A DNA stretch of 64,000 bases, taken from assembly GCA_963761725.1 (NCBI GenBank), contig CAVXHP010000006.1:317534-381533 (forward strand), read 5' to 3'. The notes below the pieces were generated by a model. The model was given only the letters and a program-made list of their open reading frames with translations, was not told where the DNA came from and did no database searches. The position numbers were made by a program, and so were the translations under genes. Origin of the DNA: an uncultured Cytophagales bacterium. GTDB lineage: Bacteria; Bacteroidota; Bacteroidia; Cytophagales; Bernardetiaceae. This document shows positions 39,335-50,779 of the stretch, piece by piece (the stretch's first letter is position 1; each line of letters begins with the position of its first letter).

Positions 39335-39682
39335 TCAATTTATTTGCGATAAAATAAGCTCAAACTGCTTTTTGAGGGTAGGAATTTCTTTTCGTGCAGT
39401 TACCCAAACGAGTTCGAAATTAATTCCCAAATACTCATGAACCAAAACTGTATGTAACCTTTCCATGGCTTCCCAATGCAATTGTGGATAATTATCTTTT
39501 AGGTCGTCAGAAATTTTTTCTACAATTAATCCAATAATTTCTAATTGCTTTACAGTTGCGATACGCATCATTGAATTATTCAAAAAATCTTCATGAGAAG
39601 CCTTTTTGACGTAACTTTCAATCTCATACATAGACTCCAATACGCTTTGTATGCGTGCAAAGTCGGTTTTGCTTTGACTCAT
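39335..39682 (-). CDS. DUF86/HepT-like (HEPN) protein, no adjacent MNT partner
   Basis: 115 aa. ...MERLHTVLVHEY resembles the Rx4HxY HEPN motif of HepT toxins. Confidence 0.4.
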   Translation of the reverse strand: MSQSKTDFARIQSVLESMYEIESYVKKASHEDFLNNSMMRIATVKQLEIIGLIVEKISDDLKDNYPQLHWEAMERLHTVLVHEYLGINFELVWVTARKEIPTLKKQFELILSQIN

Positions 39683-41011: not shown

Positions 41012-41488
41012 TTACTCATTTACTTCTCTCAAAATATGTTCGAATAAATTTCTGTTTACTCTAAATCCTATTTCGTTTACTAACCTTTCAAGCAATGGAC
41101 GAAGTAATGGAATAAACCCTCTTCTTTTTGCTTGTATCAAAATTCCTAATAGTCCTGTTATTCTAATGTTCTGACTTTGAGCTATTTCTCTACCTTTTCG
41201 TTCATCTATTAATAAAAAATTACAGTTTAATTCCTTTGCTAACACTATTGCTTCGGCTTCTCCTGCATCTAGTTCTTGCTTTAGTAATTCTACTTTTTCA
41301 GTATCAGAAACAGAAATTACAGTTATCCAATCAACAGAGTCCATTATAATTCTTTGATTTTCATAGACTACTAATTCTTCATAAACTTCATTTGGAATAA
41401 TAATAGTTGAAAAAAGTCTTTTTAATAAATCTAGTTTATCAAGTTGAATTAAGTTTGTAATAGGCGAAGTATCACTAATAATAATCAT
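41012..41488 (-). CDS. DUF3368-family PIN-like toxin
   Basis: MIIISDTSPITNLIQLDKLDLL N-terminus is typical of DUF3368. Paired with a UPF0175 gene. Confidence 0.6.
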   Translation of the reverse strand: MIIISDTSPITNLIQLDKLDLLKRLFSTIIIPNEVYEELVVYENQRIIMDSVDWITVISVSDTEKVELLKQELDAGEAEAIVLAKELNCNFLLIDERKGREIAQSQNIRITGLLGILIQAKRRGFIPLLRPLLERLVNEIGFRVNRNLFEHILREVNE

Positions 41489-41987: not shown

Positions 41988-44900
41988 ATGAGTACAAATC
42001 CTCCAATTCCGATGCCTTATGCCTCAAAAAACAAACTGCGTGTAGTTACAGCAGCAGCTCTTTTTGATGGACACGATGCAGCTATAAATATTATGCGCCG
42101 AATTATTCAATCTTCGGGTGCAGAAGTGATTCATTTAGGACACAACCGTTCGGTAGAAGAAATTGTAAATTGTGCCATTCAAGAAGATGCACAAGCGATT
42201 GCCATTACTTCCTACCAAGGTGGACACGTAGAATATTTTAAATATATGCACGACCTTTTGAAAGAGCGAGGTGCAGGACATATCAAACTTTTTGGTGGTG
42301 GTGGTGGTGTAATTCTTCCATCCGAAATTGAGGAACTGCATAATTACGGCATTACCAAAATTTATCATCCAGACGATGGTCGTTCAATGGGACTTCAAGG
42401 AATGATAAATAATTTGCTTGAACAAACCGATTTTCCAACAGGAAATGATGTAGAAATAAGCGAAGTAGAAAAAGTAAAAGAAAGAAATTCTAAAAATTTG
42501 GGAAGGATTATTTCAGCAGTTGAAAATTATCCAGAAAAAAATAAGGAAATTATAAAGAAAATAAAAGAATTAATACCTGAAAAAGTAGCTCCTGTTTTGG
42601 GAATTACGGGAACAGGTGGTGCAGGTAAATCTTCGCTTGTCGATGAGCTTGTAAGACGTTATTTGATGGATTTTGAAGACAAAACGATTGCCATTGTTTC
42701 GGTTGATCCTTCTCGTCGTCGTACTGGTGGCGCACTTTTGGGCGACCGTATTCGTATGAATTCGATTACAAACGACCGTGTTTATATGCGTTCGTTGGCT
42801 ACTCGTCAATCAAATTTAGCTCTTTCAAAATACGTTCAAGATGCGATTGATATTCTTCGTGCAGCCGAGTTTGATTTGATTATCGTTGAAACTTCTGGAA
42901 TTGGACAATCTGATACAGCCATTACAGACCATTCAGATGCTTCTTTGTACGTCATGACACCTGAATACGGTGCAGCTTCGCAATTAGAAAAAATCGATAT
43001 GATTGATTTTGCTGATGTGATTGCACTCAATAAATTTGACAAACGTGGTGCTTTAGATGCGCTTCGTGATGTCAAAAAACAGTACAAACGAAACCGTAAT
43101 TTGTGGGACACACCAGATTCAGAAATTCCAGTTTATGGTACGATTGCATCGCAGTTTAATGATGTTGGAATGAATACTTTGTATCGTGCTTTGATTGACC
43201 AAATTAATAAAGTCAGTGAAAAAACAAATACAAAATTTGATTCTTCCTTCGAAATATCGGCTTCTACGTCTGAAAAACAGTATATTATTCCTCCTTCAAG
43301 AGTTCGTTACCTGTCAGAAATTAGTGAAAGTAATCGTCGTTATGATAAAAATGCAGAAGAACAAGCCGAAATTGCACAGAAATTATACGGTTTAGAACTT
43401 TCTATTCATTCTATTTCAGAGAATGAAGAAATGGACAAAGACTTAAAAGATTCTATCATTAATGGCTTAAAAGATACTTTTCGAACAAATAAAACTTTCT
43501 TTAGAAGGCACAAATTGGAAAATCATTGAAGATTGGCAAACAAAAGTAGCCACTTATACGGCTGAAGATTTTGTTTATAAAGTTCGTAACAAAGAATTTA
43601 GCCTTAAAACTTATACCGTTTCTCTTTCTCAATCCAAAATCCCTAAGATTTCTCTACCAAAATACAAAGCGTGGGGAGATATTTTGAAATGGAATTTGCA
43701 AGAAAATGTACCAGGGGAATTTCCATTTACGTCAGGTGTTTTTCCGTTTAAACGTACTGGCGAAGACCCTACTCGTATGTTTGCAGGCGAAGGAGGACCC
43801 GAACGCACAAACAGACGTTTTCATTATCTTTCAAAAGGAATGCCTGCTGCACGACTTTCGACGGCTTTTGATTCAGTTACTTTGTATGGAGAAGACCCAG
43901 ATTATCGTCCAGATATTTATGGAAAAGTGGGTAATTCAGGTGTAAATGTGTGTTGTTTGGATGATGCAAAAAAACTCTATTCAGGTTTTAATTTGGCTGA
44001 CCCAACTACTTCGGTTTCGATGACCATTAATGGTCCTGCTGCTACGGTTTGTGCTTTTTTTATGAATGCAGCCGTTGATCAGCAATGTGAAATTTATATC
44101 AAAGAAAACGGTTTAGAGGAAGAAGTTGAGGCAAAAATCAAGAAAAAATACGAAGGCAAAATTCGTCCTACCTATAATGGAGGTTTGCCAGAAGGAAATA
44201 ACGGCTTAGGTCTGATGCTTTTGGGAGCAACAGGCGATGAAGTTTTGGATAAAGAAATTTATGATAAAATAAAAGCAAAAACACTCACACAAGTACGTGG
44301 AACGGTTCAAGCTGATATTTTGAAGGAAGACCAAGCGCAAAATACGTGTATTTTTAGTACCGAATTTTCGCTAAAACTAATGGGAGATATTCAGCAGTAT
44401 TTTATCGACCATCACGTTCAAAATTTCTATTCGGTTTCTATTTCGGGTTATCATATTGCAGAAGCAGGCGCAAATCCGATTACGCAACTTGCCTTTACAC
44501 TGAGTAATGGTTTTACGTTTGCCGAATATTATTTGAGTAGAGGAATGGATATTAATGATTTTGCACCGAATTTCTCGTTTTTCTTTTCGAATGGAATTGA
44601 CCCAGAATATTCTGTTATTGGTCGTGTTGCTCGTCGTATTTGGGCAAAGGCGATGAAAAACAAGTACGGAGCAAACGATAGAGCGCAAAAACTAAAATAT
44701 CATATCCAAACTTCGGGGCGTTCACTTCACGCACAAGAAATTGATTTTAATGATATTCGTACTACTTTACAAGCCTTGTATGCCATTTACGACAACTGTA
44801 ACTCGCTGCATACCAACGCTTACGACGAAGCCATAACGACACCAACGGAAGATTCTGTTCGTCGTGCTGTGGCGATTCAGCTTATCATCAATAAAGAATT

Positions 44901-45396
44901 AGGACTAGCAAAAAATGAAAATCCGTTGCAAGGTTCGTTTATTATTGAAGAACTGACTGATTTGGTAGAAGAAGCTGTTTTGAAGATTTTTGACCAAATT
45001 ACTGAGCGTGGTGGTGTTTTGGGAGCGATGGAAAGACAGTTTCAGCGCACACAAATACAGGAAGAAAGTATGTATTATGAAATGCAAAAACACACAGGCG
45101 AATATCCGATTGTGGGTGTAAATACATTTTTGTCTTCGAAGGGTTCGCCTACCGTTATTCCTGCCGAAGTAATTCGTTCGACAGAAGAAGAAAAAGAGTA
45201 TCAAATAAATATGCTCAAAAACCTTCATTCTTTTGATGAACAAAAAAATCAGCAAATACTCAAAGACCTTCAAAAAGCAGCCATCAAACACGAAAATATG
45301 TTTGAACATTTAATGACAGCTACTAAAACCTGTTCGTTAGGACAGATTACTAGAGCGTTGTTTGAAGTTGGGGGGCAGTATAGGAGGAATATGTAA
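41988..45396 (+). CDS. icmF: fused isobutyryl-CoA mutase IcmF (B12-binding domain + MeaB-like G-protein + mutase substrate domain); frame interrupted in 43471-43529
   Basis: B12 domain: [12 protein letters not shown]...ITSYQGGH. P-loop: [17 protein letters not shown]. Linker/mutase: [33 protein letters not shown]. The second part (43684..45396, TTG-initiated in the track) is the +1 frame, which is already open from 43471. Confidence 0.85.
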
Positions 45397-45415
45397 AAAT
45401 TCTGCAAATAAAAAA

Positions 45416-45451
45416 AACGGACAATCTTAAAAAAAGATTGTCCGTTTTTTA
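45416..45451. terminator. bidirectional rho-independent terminator (aacggacaatctt aaaaaaa gattgtccgtttttt)
   Basis: Perfect 11-bp stem flanked by an A-run and a T-run, just after icmF. Confidence 0.7.
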
Positions 45452-45468
45452 TTATAAAAATTATATTA

Positions 45469-45714
45469 TCATAGATATTGATAATGATTTGTGTTGTCTT
45501 TAATCCAACCTTTTTCATTTTCATATACACCTTCTGTTACAGTAATAAAGAAAAACGAGTTTTTTTCTTTTGAGTTATTACCCATAACAGGAGGTGACAT
45601 ATCTATATGTGCAATTATATCTTCTGGCAATTCACATTTAATTTCTGATGTACTTGAATTTGAAGAATATAAAGATGTATCTTTGGTAATTTTGATGAGA
45701 CCGATAGCTGACAT
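45469..45714 (-). CDS. small hypothetical protein
   Basis: 81 aa. A same-size + strand ORF overlaps it; the minus-strand reading looks less repetitive. Confidence 0.2.
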   Translation of the reverse strand: MSAIGLIKITKDTSLYSSNSSTSEIKCELPEDIIAHIDMSPPVMGNNSKEKNSFFFITVTEGVYENEKGWIKDNTNHYQYL

Positions 45715-45907
45715 ATAGTATTAAATTTAAGTACGAAATTGTAACAGAAAAATCAACAGAATAAAATACTAAAAGAGTTCCAAAATTTATAAAGTATTTT
45801 TATCTACTACATTTTCTTTATTTTAAATCTAGTGAAGTTTTTGAAAACTTTATAGGTTTATCTTACGTTATTCTCTTTATAATTAACAAATATTAATCTA
45901 TAACTAT

Positions 45908-46318
45908 ATGGAAGTTGGAGAAATTTATCAAACAGAAAAATTACATGTTGTTGGGAAATATAATAACGGTAATAATATAGTGGGTTTTGAACATCCATTT
46001 GCCATTATTAAAAAAGATCGTGACGACATTTGGGGAGTAATGCTTACTCACGGAAATTTTGAAAATAATGTACCAATGAAAAAAGAACACTTCAAAGAAG
46101 GGTATATTTTTGAATTTCATGATGAAAATTATGAAAAAGGAATAACACAAATGGTAAAACTTTTTTTAGATAAATCAATTATTACTCGTGAAAATTTAAA
46201 GTCTGATATTAAAGGATATTTAACAGAAAAAGGACTTGCATTTATACATGAAAGAATTAATGAGTTAGGATGGATGCCTACTAACTGGAGAGAATATAAA
46301 AAAACATTGTCTAAATAA
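45908..46318 (+). CDS. hypothetical protein
   Basis: 136 aa. First gene of the small-gene islet. Confidence 0.4.
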   Translation: MEVGEIYQTEKLHVVGKYNNGNNIVGFEHPFAIIKKDRDDIWGVMLTHGNFENNVPMKKEHFKEGYIFEFHDENYEKGITQMVKLFLDKSIITRENLKSDIKGYLTEKGLAFIHERINELGWMPTNWREYKKTLSK

Positions 46319-46359
46319 TTTATTCCTTAACTAAAATACCACTTATTAAACCTTATTCT

Positions 46360-46755
46360 ATGCTTAGATTTATTTTAATTATTTTACTTGCTGCTTTAAC
46401 TTCTTTTATGCCTTCTTTGGAAAAAAAAGAAATGCAAGATATAACGAGAAGCTATAATTATTCCATGATATTTGATATAGTAACCAACAAAGAAGGAGAC
46501 TGGAAGAAGTCTTACAATGAGTTTACTTTTAAAACGGAAAATATTATACATTACAGTACAACTTATGGTACAATCGTGTATAAAATTTTGGGTAATCCTA
46601 GAAAAGGAACAAATCCATACGGACATAAATATACAGATTATTCAGTTGTATATGGAGGAGACAAATATCAAGTTCTTTTATGGGATAGTGTTAACAGAGG
46701 TGTATGGGTATGGCTGGAGGGTAATCTTGCAATTGAATTTAACAATCCAAAATGA
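46360..46755 (+). CDS. secreted hypothetical protein
   Basis: 131 aa with N-terminal signal peptide MLRFILIILLAALTSF. Confidence 0.4.
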   Translation: MLRFILIILLAALTSFMPSLEKKEMQDITRSYNYSMIFDIVTNKEGDWKKSYNEFTFKTENIIHYSTTYGTIVYKILGNPRKGTNPYGHKYTDYSVVYGGDKYQVLLWDSVNRGVWVWLEGNLAIEFNNPK

Positions 46756-46833
46756 TTAATTATTTTATGTGTTCTTATTTGCTAAAAAGGCATAAAAATA
46801 ACCTTAAAGATTAGAATTAAAAATAAATTAGTT

Positions 46834-47393
46834 ATGGAAAACAACGAATTTAATGAAATGTTATGGATACAAGATTACTTTGAAGGACAAGTCAGTTTTG
46901 ACTCTGATTCAATAAAAAGTATAAGAAATTTTACATTACTTTGGAGTATGTTTGAAGACATTGCTTGTGATAAAATGGCTACAATTAATTCTATAGAAGA
47001 TTTCGTAGCGAGTTTAAATAGACGATTAATAAATAGAGAAAAAATTAATTTTTTTTTAGATTTCGTTTAGAAAGATATTTAGATGAAAACAACGAATTGA
47101 AATCAGCTTTTTCTAATCTAAATTTTCGTGATAATAAAAATGATCAAAGAGCCAAAGAATTAGTTCAACAGGTTCTTAAAGGAGAGATAATTGACCGAAG
47201 ACTGATATTAACAGCAATGTTATTTATAGTATTCAGATTGAGAAATAATCTACTTCATGGAATTAAAGGCATAATAAGGCTTAATACACAAGAAGAGTAT
47301 TTTAATCTTGCAAATAAACTTTTGGCAAAATGCCTAGAGTTACATAAAGATTCTAAATATATGAAAGTAAGTGTAAGCAATAATCAGATTTGA
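46834..47393 (+). CDS. HEPN-like (Rx4HG motif) protein interrupted in a T9 homopolymer at 47049-47057
   Basis: ORFs 46834..47070 and 47097..47393 are joined by the alternate frame through the T-run, giving ...INREKINFF(F)RFRLERYLDENNELKSAFSNLNF... The second half carries FRLRNNLLHGIKG (R-x4-H-G). Confidence 0.35.
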
Positions 47394-47502
47394 TAACTTC
47401 CTTTGAATAGCAAGGCGAGATTAAATACTGATAGGAATACAGTTACTTATCAATTCAATACTTGACTTATCTAAAATTTAATAAAGAGTAATTTACAATT
47501 AA

Positions 47503-47886
47503 ATGAAATATATCTTAGTTATCTTGATATTTATATTCTTTATACCTTTGTCTAACGAAGCAAAGGCACAAGATAATATTAGTTTTTCTTTTAAGAAATT
47601 GGAAGAATTGGGTCATTTAACAGTTCTAACATATAATCTACATTATTATGGTAAGCCAACTAATACTGTATATATAGTTGTAGTTAAATATCCTAACGAA
47701 AATTATAAAAGAACGTGCGATAGTTATTATAGAAATAATGGGTCATTATGTCTTACTAATGATATAGAATTCTCTCTTTTTCTTCGTAAAGGTAAAAATG
47801 AAAATGAAGAAATTGATAGAATAGATATTAGTTTATATAAGGATATACTATATAGAGTTCATTTACATGATCCATCTATTGATTGA
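47503..47886 (+). CDS. secreted hypothetical protein
   Basis: 127 aa with signal peptide MKYILVILIFIFFIPLSNEAKA. Confidence 0.4.
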   Translation: MKYILVILIFIFFIPLSNEAKAQDNISFSFKKLEELGHLTVLTYNLHYYGKPTNTVYIVVVKYPNENYKRTCDSYYRNNGSLCLTNDIEFSLFLRKGKNENEEIDRIDISLYKDILYRVHLHDPSID

Positions 47887-48116
47887 TAAGCTATGTCCTG
47901 CCGTCCCCTCGTTAAGCGTAGTCTGCGACTACGATTTATCAGTTTGGCAAATCTTAGATTTGCGAGTAGATGTATTTCTGTTGCAAGTGGGAATTAGATT
48001 TTGAGATAATACAACTTTTATACTATTAATTTCGTATATTTGTATAAAAATAGTAACCGAAGTCGTTTTAAGGCGTGAGTAATTGGGTTTTAGGACATAA
48101 TTACGTCGGTTCTTTT

Positions 48117-48248
48117 TTAAAGTTCCTTTATAAAGTCTTCAAAAGTTTGTAGTTTTCTTCCTTCTTTGCGAGCTTGTTTTACTTCTAAAACAGCCTCTTT
48201 TATTCCCTGCAAAACTTTCTCTTTGTTACGTTGTTTTTTGCTTTTCAT
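48117..48248 (-). CDS. small basic protein (43 aa), antitoxin-like C-terminal pattern (...KQARKEGRKLQTFEDFIKEL)
   Basis: Not in the ORF track (<60 aa). Start overlaps the last 7 codons of the 140-aa gene in another frame. A homologous copy at 49869..50009 is conserved at protein level. Confidence 0.4.
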   Translation of the reverse strand: MKSKKQRNKEKVLQGIKEAVLEVKQARKEGRKLQTFEDFIKEL

Positions 48249-48648
48249 CTTGATTTAGGGTTGATTTTTTGACTATTTTACTTCTGAAAAATAATATTAA
48301 TTCTTTAAATTCCTCGTGTCTTTTTAGAGCTTCTTCCATATTTGTAGCAGGTTTTCTGTCTGCTTTTAGTTCTTCAAAACTGGAATATTTTGTAAGCGTT
48401 CCGTTTTTGAATTGTGCCAGTATTTTTCTTTTGTTCGTAAATTCTCCTGTATAAATCAACGTTATTTTATCAAAATCCTTAGTTTTTTCACGTCCTATAT
48501 AACAAACCTCTTTTTTATCTTTGCTATGAAACAAAGGGATTCCTTCCACTACTTCAAGTTTGCTCTCGTCCATAACAGGATTTCCAAGTAAAACCCACTC
48601 ATTCGGATAAAGTGTTTTTATCTCTACGATATTTATTTGTTTTTTCAT
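48226..48648 (-). CDS. two-domain hypothetical protein (copy 1 of duplicated module)
   Basis: 140 aa. ~90% identical to the 49999..50409 product. The C-terminal ~55 aa also exist as a stand-alone ORF immediately upstream. Confidence 0.5.
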   Translation of the reverse strand: MKKQINIVEIKTLYPNEWVLLGNPVMDESKLEVVEGIPLFHSKDKKEVCYIGREKTKDFDKITLIYTGEFTNKRKILAQFKNGTLTKYSSFEELKADRKPATNMEEALKRHEEFKELILFFRSKIVKKSTLNQDEKQKTT

Positions 48649-48809
48649 GTTGATTTTTTTGAAATTGTTTTTTCAATTCTTTTACTTTGAAAAAAGTGTA
48701 TCAATTCTTTAAATTCTTCGTGTCTTTTTAGAGCTTCTTCCATATTTTTAGTAGGTTTTGCATCTGCTTTAAGTTCTTCAAAACTTGAAAATCGTTTTAA
48801 TTTATTCAT
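48645..48809 (-). CDS. stand-alone copy of the C-terminal domain of the 140-aa protein (54 aa)
   Basis: MNKLKRFSSFEELKADAKPTKNMEEALKRHEEFKELIHFFQSK aligns with residues ~86-130 of the 140-aa protein. Its stop overlaps the 140-aa start (ATGA). Confidence 0.35.
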   Translation of the reverse strand: MNKLKRFSSFEELKADAKPTKNMEEALKRHEEFKELIHFFQSKRIEKTISKKST

Positions 48810-48825
48810 AATTATATAACGGTTT

Positions 48826-49032
48826 TTACTTTCTTAAAATTCTATGTTTATTTTTTTCCCACCAATTTATATTGATTTCTCTACTTAATTTATCAACATC
48901 TTCTTGTGTTGCTTTTATATTTTGGGTTAATTGGCAATATTCAATATAATTTACAAGTCGTTCTAACGCCTCTAAATCTGCCGTATCAGGAACTCTTAGT
49001 ACAAACTCATTTCCTTGTTTTTCAATATTCAT
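48826..49032 (-). CDS. small hypothetical protein (68 aa), first gene of the minus-strand four-gene unit
   Basis: Preceded by a promoter-region repeat that is also found upstream of module copy 2. Confidence 0.35.
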   Translation of the reverse strand: MNIEKQGNEFVLRVPDTADLEALERLVNYIEYCQLTQNIKATQEDVDKLSREININWWEKNKHRILRK

Positions 49033-49219
49033 TTTTTATAATTTTAAGTGAAAAATATAATTTCGTAGTATATTTATAATCAACGTGAAAATTGATTTTT
49101 AAGTTTGAATAATCTTATTATTTGAAGAAGGTTTTTTTGTGAGCAATCAAACCTTTTTAGCTGTTTCTTACGTTTTAATATAGAAGAAATCAATAATTTA
49201 CCTTTAATTTTTTTAAAAT

Positions 49220-49432
49220 ATGAGTACCCAAGAACGAGTAGAACAAATTCGTAATTTAGCTACACAATTATCAGAAGCAGAACAAGAAGCATTTAGAAAA
49301 GCAATGGAACGACAGGTTATGATGGCAGAAGCACAACAATTAAGTAAAGGAACAAAAGCAACAATCACATTAGAGGAAATCGTAAAAGAAGTAAATGTAG
49401 TTAGAGAAGAGCGTTACCAAAGAGGAAAATAA
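49220..49432 (+). CDS. putative antitoxin (partner of the PIN toxin)
   Basis: 70-aa charged helical protein immediately upstream of a PIN-domain gene. Confidence 0.45.
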   Translation: MSTQERVEQIRNLATQLSEAEQEAFRKAMERQVMMAEAQQLSKGTKATITLEEIVKEVNVVREERYQRGK

Positions 49433-49461
49433 TAAGAAAAATAATAAGGAAAATAATTTTT

Positions 49462-49857
49462 ATGCAACATATTATTTTAGATACAAATATTTGGTTGAGT
49501 TATATTATTACGAAAAAATTACCTGATTTGGTAAGTTTAATTTATTCCAATAATTTGATTTTGTATGGTTCTGATCCACTTTACGACGAACTGAAAGAAG
49601 TATTAGGAAGAAAAAAGTTTGAAAAATATTTAGAATTTTCTATTGAGGAATATGTAGCTTTTCAAAAACGACTTACCAAAAAAGTAGATACCGAGAAAAT
49701 ATTTATAGGCTCGCCAGACCCAAAAGATGATTTTTTGTTTGATTTGGCTAATCAATCTGATGCAACTCATTTGGTTACAGGAGATAAAAATATTTTAGAG
49801 TTTAGTTATCCTCCTTTAAAAATTATTTCTTTTGCAGAGTTTAGAAATTCGTTTTGA
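49462..49857 (+). CDS. PIN-domain toxin (VapC-like)
   Basis: MQHIILDTNIWLSY...DELKEVL...DFLFDLANQSDATHLVTGDK carries the conserved PIN acidic residues. Confidence 0.7.
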   Translation: MQHIILDTNIWLSYIITKKLPDLVSLIYSNNLILYGSDPLYDELKEVLGRKKFEKYLEFSIEEYVAFQKRLTKKVDTEKIFIGSPDPKDDFLFDLANQSDATHLVTGDKNILEFSYPPLKIISFAEFRNSF

Positions 49858-49868
49858 TTAAAAAAAGT

Positions 49869-50009
49869 CTACTCATTTTCAAGTTCTTTCAGAAAATCCT
49901 CTAAAGTTTTTAATTGTCTACCTTCTTTACGAGCTTGTTTTACTTCTATAATTGACTCTTTCAATTCTTTTAAAATTCTCTCCTTGTTACGTTGTTTTTT
50001 ACTTTTCAT
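49869..50009 (-). CDS. small basic protein (46 aa), copy 2
   Basis: MKSKKQRNKERILKELKESIIEVKQARKEGRQLKTLEDFLKELENE. Overlaps the 3' end of the 136-aa gene. Confidence 0.4.
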   Translation of the reverse strand: MKSKKQRNKERILKELKESIIEVKQARKEGRQLKTLEDFLKELENE

Positions 50010-50409
50010 CTTGATTTAGGGTTGATTTATCAATTCTTTTACTTTGAAAGAAGCGTATTAATTCTTTAAATTCTTTGTGTCTTTTTAGAGCTTCTTCCAT
50101 ATTTGTTGCAGGTTTTCTGTCTGCTTTAAGTTCTTCAAAACTGGAATATTTTGTAAGTGTACCGTTTTTTAATTGTGCTAGTATTTTTCTTTTGCTTGTA
50201 AACTCTCCTGTATAAATCAACGTTATTTTATCAAAGTCCTTAGTTTTTTCACGTCCTATATAACAAACCTCTTTTTTGTCTTTGCTATGAAACAAAGGGA
50301 TTCCTTCCATTACTTCAAGTTTGCTTTCGTCCATAACGGGATTTCCAAGTAAGACCCACTCATTTGGGTAAAGTGTTTTTAATTCTGCTATATTTATTTG
50401 CTTTTTCAT
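49999..50409 (-). CDS. two-domain hypothetical protein (copy 2 of duplicated module)
   Basis: 136 aa, ~90% identical to the 48226..48648 product. Confidence 0.5.
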   Translation of the reverse strand: MKKQINIAELKTLYPNEWVLLGNPVMDESKLEVMEGIPLFHSKDKKEVCYIGREKTKDFDKITLIYTGEFTSKRKILAQLKNGTLTKYSSFEELKADRKPATNMEEALKRHKEFKELIRFFQSKRIDKSTLNQDEK

Positions 50410-50572
50410 ATAGATTCTTTTTAAAAGTGTATTGTAAAATTAACGTAGAAATTAGGTTTTAAGTTTGAATAATTTATTATTTGAAGAAGGTTTTTTTGTG
50501 AGTAATCAAACCTTTCTGTATAGGTTGCACGTTATTGAAGTAAGAATTTAATAAAATCTAAAATAGAATAGT

Positions 50573-50779
50573 ATGAACAATTCAGATATAAAACTCAATT
50601 TATTTTGTCGTATAGATATGCTTTCTGATGATGTATTACAAGACCTTCAAAAAGTAGTAGATAATTTTATTGCTAAAAAAAGTGTTTCGCCACCTCTAAA
50701 AGAACGAGAATTTGGAGCAATGAAAGGACTTGTAACTTATATGTCAGATGATTTTGATGAGCCTTTAGAAGATTTTTAG
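50573..50779 (+). CDS. DUF2281-like antitoxin, C-terminally truncated
   Basis: REFGAMKGLVTYMSDDFDEPLEDF matches the DUF2281 C-terminal signature but stops early. Confidence 0.45.
   Translation: MNNSDIKLNLFCRIDMLSDDVLQDLQKVVDNFIAKKSVSPPLKEREFGAMKGLVTYMSDDFDEPLEDF

What the first reader, a model, noticed from the sequence alone, without database searches (positions are those of the whole stretch)
48117..50530. Duplicated, translationally overlapping two-gene module of unknown family flanking a PIN/antitoxin pair
A ~140-aa protein is followed by a 43-46 aa basic protein whose start codon overlaps the last 4-7 codons of the large gene in another frame. This pair occurs twice on the minus strand (48117-48648 and 49869-50409), ~90% identical at protein level. 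Each copy sits behind a duplicated ~90 bp upstream region (49085-49180 and 50440-50530). Copy 1 also acquired a 68-aa ORF and a stand-alone 54-aa ORF upstream; the 54-aa ORF is a copy of the C-terminal domain of the 140-aa protein, which is evidence of domain shuffling. The small protein ends in a ...KQARKEGRKLQTFEDFIKEL pattern reminiscent of RelB/DinJ/Phd-type antitoxin C-termini. The two copies bracket a canonical antitoxin + PIN pair (49220-49857). I cannot assign the 140-aa protein to any known toxin family. The gene overlap, duplication and toxin-antitoxin neighbourhood point to an addiction- or defence-type module that may be undescribed.
Basis: partly seen in the sequence, partly recalled or inferred. 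Interest (0 to 1): 0.7.

Follow-up and report, generated by a model that had tools for sequence, protein, structure and literature searches.

The report
Toxin-less mosaic of antitoxin-type genes
The "unknown 140-aa protein plus small basic protein" is a real, duplicated gene pair, but it is a patchwork of four antitoxin-type genes, two of them fused, whose toxin partners are all missing, sitting in a strain-variable toxin-antitoxin island of a Cytophagales bacterium; it is not a new toxin family.

Summary
The ORFs, overlaps and duplication are real. The large proteins are 92% identical and the small ones 72%.

The 140/136-aa protein is an in-frame fusion, not a new toxin.
- Residues 1-76 belong to an abundant ~85-aa Bacteroidota protein. 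In every context examined that protein is translationally coupled to a 129-aa retropepsin-like aspartic protease.
- Residues 87-140 are a ~55-aa helical protein. It is stand-alone in relatives and coupled to the 43-47-aa ORF or to a nucleotidyltransferase-like protein.

The 43/46-aa ORFs match the C-terminal 40 residues of a 74-aa relative whose N-terminus hits Pfam RelB-like, just below cut-off. The 68-aa ORF is the upstream partner of a PIN_2 protein in sister strains.

No protease, nucleotidyltransferase, PIN_2 partner or PBECR3 nuclease was found in the 64-kb window.

The locus is a hypervariable island between an IcmF-like mutase gene and a cysteine desulfurase gene. Its cassettes differ between near-identical strains and are bounded by recurring repeats.

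All pieces show purifying selection (dN/dS 0.05-0.6). The most likely role is orphan or fused antitoxins that neutralise cognate toxins in trans; this role is inferred, not shown. Interest is modest.

The parts
48421..48648 (-). Copy 1, residues 1-76 of the 140-aa protein. This N-domain is homologous to the stand-alone ~85-aa partner of retropepsin-like aspartic proteases. It is a small alpha/beta domain with a distant link to DUF5678.
   Evidence: 738 homologues, nearly all about 85 aa. Protease immediately downstream in L001-5, L011-12 and L026-27, and fused in P0119. AF2 pLDDT 94-98 over residues 1-70. dN/dS against copy 2 is 0.06. One of 102 distant relatives hits DUF5678 at 4e-5.
48391..48420 (-). 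Copy 1, residues 77-86 (LAQFKNGTLT). This linker replaces the canonical tail TGIFNRITK and the former intergenic spacer.
   Evidence: DNA alignment A1 against L011 (canonical) and L018 (unfused). Low pLDDT of 56-63.
48226..48390 (-). Copy 1, residues 87-140: the ~55-aa helical 'FEELKA...NMEEALKRH' domain. It is a stand-alone gene in relatives; its ATG is ACA here.
   Evidence: Stand-alone homologues P0122, P0123, L018 and L020. Followed by a 171-aa nucleotidyltransferase-like protein in L014-17. dN/dS about 0.2.
48117..48248 (-). Copy 1, 43-aa basic helical ORF. It corresponds to the C-terminal half of a RelB-like antitoxin.
   Evidence: 73% identical (E 8e-18) to residues 31-70 of the 74-aa protein L024:130-354, whose N-terminus hits PF18506 RelB-like at E 1.5e-5. 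Its own ATG is conserved in 8 loci. dN/dS 0.05-0.6.
48645..48809 (-). 54-aa ORF: a second, stand-alone copy of the ~55-aa gene. Its normal 3' end is replaced, and its stop overlaps the 140-aa start (ATGA).
48826..49032 (-). 68-aa ORF. In sister strains it is the upstream, 4-bp-overlapping partner of a 148-aa PIN_2 protein. Here it has no PIN_2 partner.
   Evidence: P0137 is near-identical, and the L024/L025 context is 68 aa + PIN_2. In L023 a homologue is coupled to a 46-aa ORF.
49097..49156 (.). Repeat 'A', copy 1: one arm of the cassette-boundary hairpin/terminator-like element.
49220..49432 (+). 70-aa antitoxin-position gene of the PIN pair, with only a weak VapB15 match.
   Evidence: NF047401 at E 8e-5, below cut-off. 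Conserved in L013, L018 and L028.
49462..49857 (+). PIN_3 / TIGR00305 toxin gene. It is convergent with the 46-aa ORF, with 11 nt between the two stop codons.
   Evidence: The same four-gene block occurs in L028 (85.6% identity over 1337 nt) and L018.
49869..50009 (-). Copy 2, 46-aa ORF, the second subtype (...KELENE) of the RelB-like C-terminal half.
   Evidence: 56% identical (E 3e-14) to residues 31-73 of the L024 74-aa protein. 93% identical to P0125 of L013.
49999..50409 (-). Copy 2, 136-aa fusion protein with the same junction as copy 1: N-domain 50182-50409, linker 50152-50181, 55-aa domain 49999-50151.
   Evidence: The same junction is present in P0002 (L006-10) and P0131 (L028).
50457..50515 (.). 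Repeat 'A', copy 2.
47905..48110 (.). Repeat 'B', downstream of the 43-aa ORF. It contains the 36-nt GTTG...CAAC segment (47980-48015) and two perfect hairpins, and recurs at cassette boundaries in related loci.
50573..50779 (+). 68-aa DUF2281 / VapB-type antitoxin with no toxin gene downstream; another orphan in the same island.
   Evidence: PF10047 at E 1.7e-8, above cut-off. NF050009 at E 1.3e-11, 44.8 bits, below its 60-bit cut-off. The next ORF is the cysteine desulfurase on the other strand.

Best explanation
The module is a toxin-less mosaic of antitoxin-type ('first-gene') components. It was assembled by cassette recombination and in-frame deletion inside a hypervariable toxin-antitoxin island.

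Shown:
(1) The 140/136-aa protein is a fusion. It consists of the N-terminal 76 residues of the ~85-aa protein that normally precedes a retropepsin-like aspartic protease, a 10-residue linker, and a complete ~55-aa helical protein that normally stands alone upstream of a 43-47-aa ORF or a nucleotidyltransferase-like protein.
(2) The 43/46-aa ORFs are homologous to the C-terminal 40 residues of a 74-aa protein with a RelB-like N-terminus.
(3) The 68-aa ORF is the upstream partner of a PIN_2 protein in sister strains.
(4) None of the partner enzymes is encoded in the 64-kb window.
(5) All pieces evolve under purifying selection after the fusion event.

Inferred: the products act as orphan or chimeric antitoxins. 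They would bind and neutralise cognate toxins (protease, nucleotidyltransferase, PIN_2, or BECR/RelE-type RNase) that are encoded elsewhere in the genome or arrive on mobile elements. This is an anti-addiction or immunity role, possibly combined with autoregulation of their own operon. They would not themselves form a poison-antidote pair.
For: Fusion:
- The DNA alignment shows the canonical gene (L011) running ...RKITGIFNRITK* into the protease start.
- L018 shows an intermediate: the 85-aa gene ends ...KRKITGIF*, followed by a 65-bp spacer and a separate 55-aa gene with its own ATG.
- Window copies 1 and 2, P0002 and P0131 share the identical in-frame junction RKI-L(A/T)Q(F/L)KNGTLT-KYSSFEELKA.

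Partners:
- 85 aa + 129-aa Asp_protease_2/gag-asp_proteas in all four family members examined, across 9 loci, plus one natural fusion, P0119.
- 58 aa + 171-aa protein with a weak DUF6036 match.
- 68 aa + PIN_2.
- 43 aa followed by PBECR3 in L020.
- The 74-aa RelB-like relative.

Absence of toxins: tblastn with the protease, nucleotidyltransferase and PBECR3 proteins finds nothing in the window. The 68-aa ORF is followed by the 54-aa ORF where sister strains have PIN_2.

Selection: N-domain dN/dS 0.06-0.18 among fused copies, 55-aa domain about 0.2, small ORF 0.05-0.6.

Island: L006, L011, L013, L014, L019 and L024 share the flanking mutase gene at 93-99% identity but carry different cassettes.
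Against: - No binding or neutralisation has been shown.
- 'Antitoxin' status of the 85-aa and 55-aa families rests only on gene order, size and translational coupling. No family model (Pfam, NCBIfam, PADLOC, PHROGs) and no solved structure matches them.
- The RelB-like hit is below Pfam's cut-off and lies in the part of the 74-aa protein that the window ORFs lack.
- Cognate toxins elsewhere in this genome could not be looked for.
- The retropepsin-like protease has not been shown to be a toxin.
Confidence: 0.55

Rival explanations
1. One reading: a new two-gene toxin-antitoxin or defence module in which the 140-aa protein is the toxin and the overlapping 43-46-aa basic protein is its antitoxin.
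For: - The pair is conserved, with overlap, in at least 4 distinct fused loci (window x2, L006, L028).
- It is under purifying selection and sits in a TA-rich neighbourhood.
- The small protein is RelB-like.
Against: - Both halves of the 140-aa protein are homologues of small upstream (antitoxin-position) genes of other pairs.
- The small ORF pairs equally with the 55-aa protein alone and with the 68-aa PIN_2 partner.
- There is no toxin-family or catalytic signature and no PADLOC, Pfam or PDB match.
- The predicted structure is a small alpha/beta domain, a flexible linker and a long helix.
Confidence: 0.1
2. The conserved core is the [~55 aa]+[~45 aa] pair. It acts as a self-contained two-protein unit, for example a helical heterodimeric regulator or a minimal antitoxin with an accessory protein. 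It may be functionally tied to the convergent PIN_3-VapB pair. The N-domain fusion would then be incidental.
For: - The pair occurs with conserved overlap in 8 loci, with or without the N-domain.
- The block [55/fusion][45] convergent with [PIN_3][70 aa] is conserved in the window, L018 and L028 (L013 keeps only the 70-aa gene), with only 11-35 nt between the stop codons.
Against: - The N-domain is the most strongly constrained part of the fused proteins (dN/dS 0.06), so it is not incidental.
- The pair also occurs without PIN (window copy 1, L020). PIN is broken in L018 and absent in L013 while the pair stays intact.
- The 55-aa protein has other partners.
Confidence: 0.22
3. These are non-functional debris: decaying remnants of TA cassettes whose ORFs persist by chance.
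For: - All cognate toxins are missing.
- The 54-aa ORF has lost its normal 3' end.
- A 99.3%-identical contig (L019) has the 140-aa gene interrupted.
- A 68-aa homologue in L023 carries an in-frame stop.
Against: - dN/dS is well below 1 for every piece, measured after the fusion event.
- Intact ORFs of 136-140 aa occur in a 27% GC genome in at least 4 diverged lineages.
- L019 comes from an assembly in which the differences include homopolymer indels (a shortened A-run at the start codon), so they may be sequencing errors.
Confidence: 0.1
4. The large and small ORFs are one gene, joined by programmed ribosomal frameshifting in the A-rich overlap (GATGAAAAGCAAAAAACAACG).
For: The overlap is A-rich and conserved.
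Against: - The small ORF is in the +1 frame.
- There is no X_XXY_YYZ heptamer in the upstream frame.
- The upstream stop position differs between copies (DEK* against DEKQKTT*).
- The ATG is conserved in all 8 loci, including L023, where the upstream gene is different.
- No single-ORF homologue joining the 55-aa and 45-aa parts was found.
Confidence: 0.03

Closest known systems
Orphan antitoxins and the anti-addiction concept in type II TA biology (orphan antitoxins surveyed e.g. in PMC7192599; cross-interaction review PMC7354431)
   Same: Antitoxin-type genes are kept without an adjacent toxin, in a chromosomal island rich in TA genes, under purifying selection.
   Different: - Four different antitoxin-type pieces are chained in one operon, and two of them are fused into one polypeptide.
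- Three of the four families have no curated model.
- No neutralisation has been shown.
RelB-like antitoxins (Pfam PF18506) of RelBE-type systems
   Same: The 43/46-aa ORFs are 73%/56% identical to the C-terminal 40 residues of a 74-aa protein whose N-terminus matches PF18506. In one relative (L020) the ORF is followed by a PBECR3 nuclease, whose Pfam family name places it among the Barnase-EndoU-ColicinE5/D-RelE-like nucleases.
   Different: The window ORFs lack the N-terminal region that carries the Pfam match and give no hit themselves. No RelE-type toxin is nearby.
Uncharacterised Bacteroidota pair: ~85-aa protein + 129-aa retropepsin-like aspartic protease (Asp_protease_2 / gag-asp_proteas; weak TIGR02281 clan AA)
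   Same: The N-terminal 76 residues of the 140/136-aa proteins are up to 93% identical to the 85-aa component (BLASTP local alignment to P0003).
   Different: The conserved tail (TGIFNRITK) and the protease gene are both missing, and the domain is fused to another protein. The pair itself has no described function; I found no paper on it.
Recombinase-associated acquired interbacterial defence arrays (rAID-1) of Bacteroidales and integron cassette arrays (bioRxiv 10.1101/471110)
   Same: A strain-variable array of small protective-type genes, low G+C, with repeated intergenic sequences at cassette boundaries.
   Different: - No XerD-like recombinase or integrase among the ORFs inspected or scanned within about 10 kb either side of the island.
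- The genes are not co-directional.
- The contents are TA-type rather than T6SS-immunity genes.
VapBC (PIN) type II TA
   Same: The bracketed pair at 49220-49857 has a PIN_3/TIGR00305 toxin above cut-off, preceded by a small gene.
   Different: This is the neighbour, not the module in question. Its antitoxin matches VapB15 only weakly.

Membership tests
Type II toxin-antitoxin module (the 140 aa + 43 aa pair as such) | Two small adjacent co-directional genes, usually overlapping or translationally coupled | tested here: met
   23-nt and 11-nt overlaps, conserved in 8 loci.
Type II toxin-antitoxin module (the 140 aa + 43 aa pair as such) | One partner is a toxin, shown by a recognisable toxin fold or family or by demonstrated toxicity | tested here: not met
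   No hit in Pfam, NCBIfam, PADLOC or PHROGs. No PDB fold match. Both halves of the large protein are homologues of upstream partner genes. Toxicity itself is not testable here.
Type II toxin-antitoxin module (the 140 aa + 43 aa pair as such) | The antitoxin neutralises the toxin by direct binding | not testable with these tools
   Needs co-expression or pull-down experiments.
RelB-like antitoxin (PF18506) | Match to the family model above the gathering score | tested here: not met
   The window 43/46-aa ORFs give no hit. The 74-aa relative scores 25.1 bits against a cut-off of 27, over residues 5-28 only.
RelB-like antitoxin (PF18506) | Homology of the window ORFs to a family member | tested here: inconclusive
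   Clear homology to the C-terminal half of the 74-aa protein (E 8e-18 and 3e-14). That protein's own membership is sub-threshold.
RelB-like antitoxin (PF18506) | An adjacent RelE-type toxin | tested here: not met
   None in the window. A PBECR3 nuclease follows the homologue only in L020.
85-aa protein / retropepsin-like protease pair | Homology to the 85-aa component | tested here: met
   E down to 9e-41 and 93% identity over residues 1-80.
85-aa protein / retropepsin-like protease pair | Conserved C-terminal tail R-K-I-T-G-I-F-N-R | tested here: not met
   The tail is replaced after RKI by LAQFKNGTLT.
85-aa protein / retropepsin-like protease pair | Downstream, coupled aspartic protease gene with a DTG motif | tested here: not met
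   tblastn with the protease finds nothing in the window.
DUF5678 (PF18929) | Match to the family model | tested here: inconclusive
   No hit for the window protein. One of 51 close relatives hits at E 0.2 and one of 102 distant relatives at E 4.3e-5. This is a transitive hint only.
rAID-1 / integron-like cassette array | XerD-like tyrosine recombinase or integrase at the 5' end | tested here: not met
   None among the ORFs inspected or Pfam-scanned within about 10 kb of the island.
rAID-1 / integron-like cassette array | Repetitive intergenic sequences between cassettes | tested here: met
   A and B elements recur at cassette boundaries in the window, L006, L011-13, L018, L020 and L028.
VapBC (neighbouring pair 49220-49857) | PIN-domain toxin above family cut-off, preceded by a small antitoxin gene | tested here: met
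   PIN_3 at 53.7 bits (cut-off 27) and TIGR00305 at 70.9 bits (cut-off 29). The antitoxin match to VapB15 is below cut-off.

The most novel reading that the evidence does not exclude
The fused 140/136-aa protein, together with the truncated RelB-like peptide, is a selected 'poly-antitoxin'. In this reading one operon supplies immunity in trans against several unrelated toxins: a retropepsin-like protease, a DUF6036-type nucleotidyltransferase, a PIN_2 RNase and a BECR-type RNase. These toxins circulate as cassettes in this Cytophagales lineage. The cassettes would be exchanged at the recurrent hairpin 'A' and 'B-core' sites by a site-specific or hairpin-targeted mechanism with no adjacent integrase. 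A corollary is that the widespread 85-aa + retropepsin-like protease pair would be a new protease-based TA or defence family.
Probability: 0.2. Interest if true: 0.65.

Novelty: new variant of a known kind. Interest (0 to 1): 0.35.

Why it matters
It does give a clean natural example of how TA islands evolve. Toxins are lost, and antitoxin-type genes from four different systems are chained and even fused while staying under purifying selection. That fits an immunity or anti-addiction role for orphan antitoxins.

It also points to two uncharacterised things that can be tested experimentally:
1. An abundant Bacteroidota two-gene module made of an 85-aa protein and a retropepsin-like aspartic protease. 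It has no family model for the small protein, and I found no literature on it.
2. Recurrent hairpin-containing boundary repeats that mark cassette junctions in a strain-variable island without a visible recombinase.

Tried and rejected
- **Family searches.** Pfam, NCBIfam, PADLOC and PHROGs scans of the 140-, 136-, 54-, 68-, 43- and 46-aa proteins gave nothing significant.
- **Solved structures by sequence.** PDB searches with the N-domain profile, the 55-aa profile, the 45-aa profile, the 68-aa protein and the 74-aa protein gave only chance-level matches.
- **First structure model.** AF2 with a shallow alignment gave pLDDT 59 and was not used.
- **Small ORF against the neighbouring antitoxin.** Profile comparison of the 45-aa family with the VapB15-like antitoxin gave 1% probability.
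- **Small ORF as a toxin remnant.** No similarity to the PIN_2 or nucleotidyltransferase C-termini by eye. It is instead the C-terminal half of a 74-aa antitoxin-like protein.
- **Programmed frameshift.** Rejected because of the frame, the conserved ATG and the variable upstream stop.
- **CRISPR repeat.** For the 36-nt GTTG...CAAC segment there is only one copy in the window. It is part of the recurrent B element.
- **Known RNA families.** Rfam found none across the whole window at gathering scores, and none in 47800-50650 at E ≤ 1.
- **Wider distribution.** Phage and plasmid collections gave no hits. Only one of 185,579 species genomes carries the 55-aa family.
- **Literature.** No relevant papers were found for retropepsin-like protease TA systems, DUF6036 or DUF5678.


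Full report
**1. Observation**

On the minus strand they are:
- 140 aa (48226-48648) overlapping a 43-aa ORF (48117-48248) by 23 nt.
- 136 aa (49999-50409) overlapping a 46-aa ORF (49869-50009) by 11 nt.
- A 54-aa ORF (48645-48809) whose stop overlaps the 140-aa start (ATGA).
- A 68-aa ORF (48826-49032).

Between the two copies, on the plus strand, lies a PIN gene above the PIN_3 and TIGR00305 cut-offs. It is preceded by a 70-aa gene with only a weak VapB15 match.

The large proteins are 92% identical and the small ones only 72%. The conserved part of the 'duplicated upstream region' is 60 nt at 96.7% identity (49097-49156 against 50457-50515).

The two copies are not a recent duplication. Synonymous divergence between them is 0.35, 0.51 and 0.91 for the three segments. 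Each copy is about as similar to homologues in other organisms as to its twin.

**2. What the 140-aa protein is**

A search of 5.8 billion protein clusters found 738 relatives. Almost all are about 85 aa and cover only residues 1-80 of the query at 65-93% identity. They end in a conserved tail...TGxFxPxRKITGIFNRIxK.

The context was examined for four family members:
- For P0048, P0003 and P0037 (nine loci), the 85-aa gene is followed by a 129-aa protein matching Asp_protease_2/gag-asp_proteas, either with a 4-bp overlap or a 1-nt gap. That protein carries an LDTGAT motif.
- In P0119 the two are fused.

Residues 87-140 of the window protein are instead homologous to stand-alone proteins of 49-59 aa (P0122, P0123, L018, L020).

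The DNA alignment shows the history:
- L011 has the canonical gene running into the protease start.
- L018 has the 85-aa gene ending ...KRKITGIF*, then a 65-bp spacer, then a separate 55-aa gene with its own ATG.
- The window copies, P0002 (L006-10) and P0131 (L028) all share one in-frame junction, RKI-L(A/T)Q(F/L)KNGTLT-KYSSFEELKA. In it the former ATG of the 55-aa gene reads ACA.

The 140-aa protein is therefore a lineage-specific gene fusion, and the fusion predates the split of copies 1 and 2.

A structure prediction with a diverse alignment gave mean pLDDT 85:
- A confident small β-α-β-β-α-β domain over residues 1-70 (pLDDT 94-98).
- A low-confidence linker.
- A short helix followed by a long helix.

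**3. The other small ORFs**

*The ~55-aa protein.* It is followed with conserved overlap by the 43-47-aa ORF in L013, L018 and L020, and in all fused loci. In L014-17 a 58-aa homologue is instead followed, with a 4-bp overlap, by a 171-aa protein. That protein has a Pol-β-type nucleotidyltransferase signature (GG...DLD) and a sub-threshold DUF6036 match.

*The 68-aa ORF.* It is near-identical to P0137. In L024 and L025 that protein is followed, with a 4-bp overlap, by a 148-aa PIN_2 protein.

*The 43/46-aa ORFs.* They are 73% (E 8e-18) and 56% (E 3e-14) identical to residues 31-70 and 31-73 of a 74-aa protein in L024. Residues 5-28 of that protein hit Pfam RelB-like (PF18506) at E 1.5e-5, 25.1 bits against a cut-off of 27. 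The window ORFs therefore correspond to the C-terminal half of a RelB-like antitoxin. Two further contexts are informative:
- In L020 the 43-aa ORF is followed by a PBECR3 nuclease. Pfam names this family the phage Barnase-EndoU-ColicinE5/D-RelE-like nuclease 3.
- In L023 a 46-aa version sits directly behind a 68-aa homologue.

All four kinds of small ORF in the module are thus upstream-partner (antitoxin-position) genes, or antitoxin fragments, from four different two-gene systems.

**4. What is missing**

tblastn with the protease, the nucleotidyltransferase-like protein and PBECR3 finds nothing in the 64-kb window. The 68-aa ORF is followed by the 54-aa ORF where sister strains have PIN_2. 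Apart from the separate PIN_3 pair, the module has no recognisable toxin.

**5. The locus**

L006, L011, L013, L014, L019 and L024 are anchored on the same flanking gene, an IcmF-like B12-binding/MeaB/methylmalonyl-CoA-mutase fusion (window 43684-45396), at 93-99% identity. They carry different cassettes:
- 85 aa + protease + PBECR3 (L011).
- HTH + 58 aa + nucleotidyltransferase-like protein (L014).
- HTH + 68 aa + PIN_2, plus the 74-aa RelB-like gene (L024).
- 59 aa + 46 aa + a VapB-like gene without PIN (L013).
- A 137-aa protein + PIN pair + 136 aa + 46 aa + Uma2 (L006).

The window island (about 45.4-51.0 kb) has 26-29% G+C, against 35-38% in the flanking housekeeping genes.

Two repeats recur at cassette boundaries:
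- 'A' in its complete form is a 9-bp-stem hairpin, AACCTTCTT...AAGAAGGTT (z = -6.3). It has a T-run on the opposite strand, so it looks like a terminator. The window copies keep only one arm, meaning cassettes are joined inside the hairpin.
- 'B' lies at window 47905-48110.

The four-gene block [fusion][45 aa] convergent with [PIN_3][70 aa] recurs in L028 in a different genomic context, at 85.6% identity over 1337 nt. It recurs in L018 with the PIN gene broken.

No integrase was seen among the ORFs checked near the island. The resemblance to rAID-1 or integron arrays (bioRxiv 10.1101/471110) is therefore limited to the repeats and the variability.

The 55-aa family is very narrow. Only one of 185,579 species genomes carries it, an uncultured Cytophagales MAG. 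Relatives of the neighbouring DUF2281 protein are from Bernardetia.

**6. Selection**

Nei-Gojobori estimates:

| Segment | dN/dS |
|---|---|
| N-domain, among fused copies | 0.06-0.18 |
| 55-aa domain | typically about 0.2 (pairwise range 0.09-0.62) |
| Non-overlapping part of the small ORF | 0.05-0.6 |

The fused copies share one junction, so this constraint acted after the fusion and after the loss of the protease. The genes are therefore real and functional, although the counts are small.

**7. Mechanism**

*Shown:* the chimeric composition, the partners in sister strains, the absence of those partners in the window, and purifying selection.

*Inferred:* the products act as orphan antitoxins. 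They would bind cognate toxins encoded elsewhere or arriving on mobile DNA, and possibly autoregulate their own operon. I put this at about 0.55.

*Rivals:*
- A self-contained 55+45 unit, possibly tied to the PIN pair (0.22).
- Inert debris (0.10).
- Programmed frameshift (0.03).

'Antitoxin' status for the 85-aa and 55-aa families rests on gene order and coupling only. The retropepsin-like protease has not been shown to be a toxin.

**8. Novelty and score**

Orphan antitoxins and recombining TA islands are known (e.g. PMC7192599, PMC7354431). The chained and fused arrangement is a new variant of that kind.

The more interesting leads are the abundant, apparently undescribed pair of an 85-aa protein and a retropepsin-like protease, and the hairpin-bounded cassette exchange. 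Both lie largely outside this window. Interest is 0.35.

Noticed in passing
window 47905-48110 (core 47971-48015); also L006, L011, L012, L013, L018, L020, L024, L028: Repeat 'B' contains a 36-nt GTTG...CAAC segment that looks like a Bacteroidota CRISPR repeat, but there is only one copy in the window. It also has two perfect hairpins (GCAAATC-TAA-GATTTGC and GTAGTC-GCA-GACTAC). As RNA the 227-nt region (47890-48116) folds better than all 200 shuffles (z = -3.3) and has no Rfam match. Its 32-nt core flanks cassettes as direct repeats, for example on both sides of PBECR3 in L011.
   Followed up: partly
window 49097-49156 and 50457-50515; complete form in L013:4636-4672, L011:1824-1859, L006:2657-2700: Repeat 'A' in its complete form is a strong hairpin (9-bp stem) followed by a T-run on the opposite strand, so it looks like a terminator. 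In the window only one arm remains and the cassette sequence starts inside the loop or second arm. This suggests that recombination junctions fall within the hairpin.
   Followed up: partly
window 41988-43529 and 43684-45396: The IcmF-like fused mutase (B12-binding/MeaB/MM_CoA_mutase) is a single gene of 1126-1135 aa in relatives (L006, L019, L024). In the window it is split into ORFs of 513 aa and 570 aa (the second with a TTG start), about 150 nt apart. This could be a frameshift, a pseudogene or an assembly error.
   Followed up: no
window 49857/49869; L028:3544/3580; L018:576/611: The stop codons of the PIN_3 gene and of the convergent 46/47-aa ORF are only 11-35 nt apart, with no terminator between them. 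The two operons should therefore produce overlapping antisense 3' ends. The four-gene block is conserved in a different genomic context in L028.
   Followed up: partly
window 50573-50779 (+): A DUF2281 / VapB-type antitoxin gene has no toxin ORF in the 220 bp before the next gene, the cysteine desulfurase on the other strand. It is another orphan antitoxin in the same island.
   Followed up: partly
window 46834-47070 and 47097-47393 (+): ORFs of 78 aa and 98 aa with no family match. The 98-aa protein contains RLRNNLLHG, an Rx4H pattern like the HEPN RNase motif. This may be another TA or defence pair, or a split gene, in the island.
   Followed up: no
window 39335-39682 (-) and 41012-41488 (-): A HepT-like RNase toxin (PF01934, E 1.4e-17) and a DUF3368 protein (E 8.7e-15) lie a few kb upstream of the island. 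The surrounding region therefore also carries TA-type genes.
   Followed up: no
L019 (contig_15093 of ERZ25039505), 99.3% identical to window 45117-48803: In this near-identical contig the 140-aa gene is interrupted by a premature TGA, a 1-nt deletion and a shortened A-run at the start, while the 43-aa ORF is intact. This is either recent pseudogenisation or errors in the assembly.
   Followed up: partly
L001-L005, L011-L012, L026-L027, P0119 (not in the window): The pair of an 85-aa protein and a 129-aa retropepsin-like aspartic protease (LDTGAT motif) is abundant in Bacteroidota metagenomes: 738 hits, and 284 clusters at 50% identity. It is always tightly coupled and occurs once as a natural fusion. 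There is no family model for the small protein and I found no literature on it. It is a candidate protease-based TA or defence module.
   Followed up: partly
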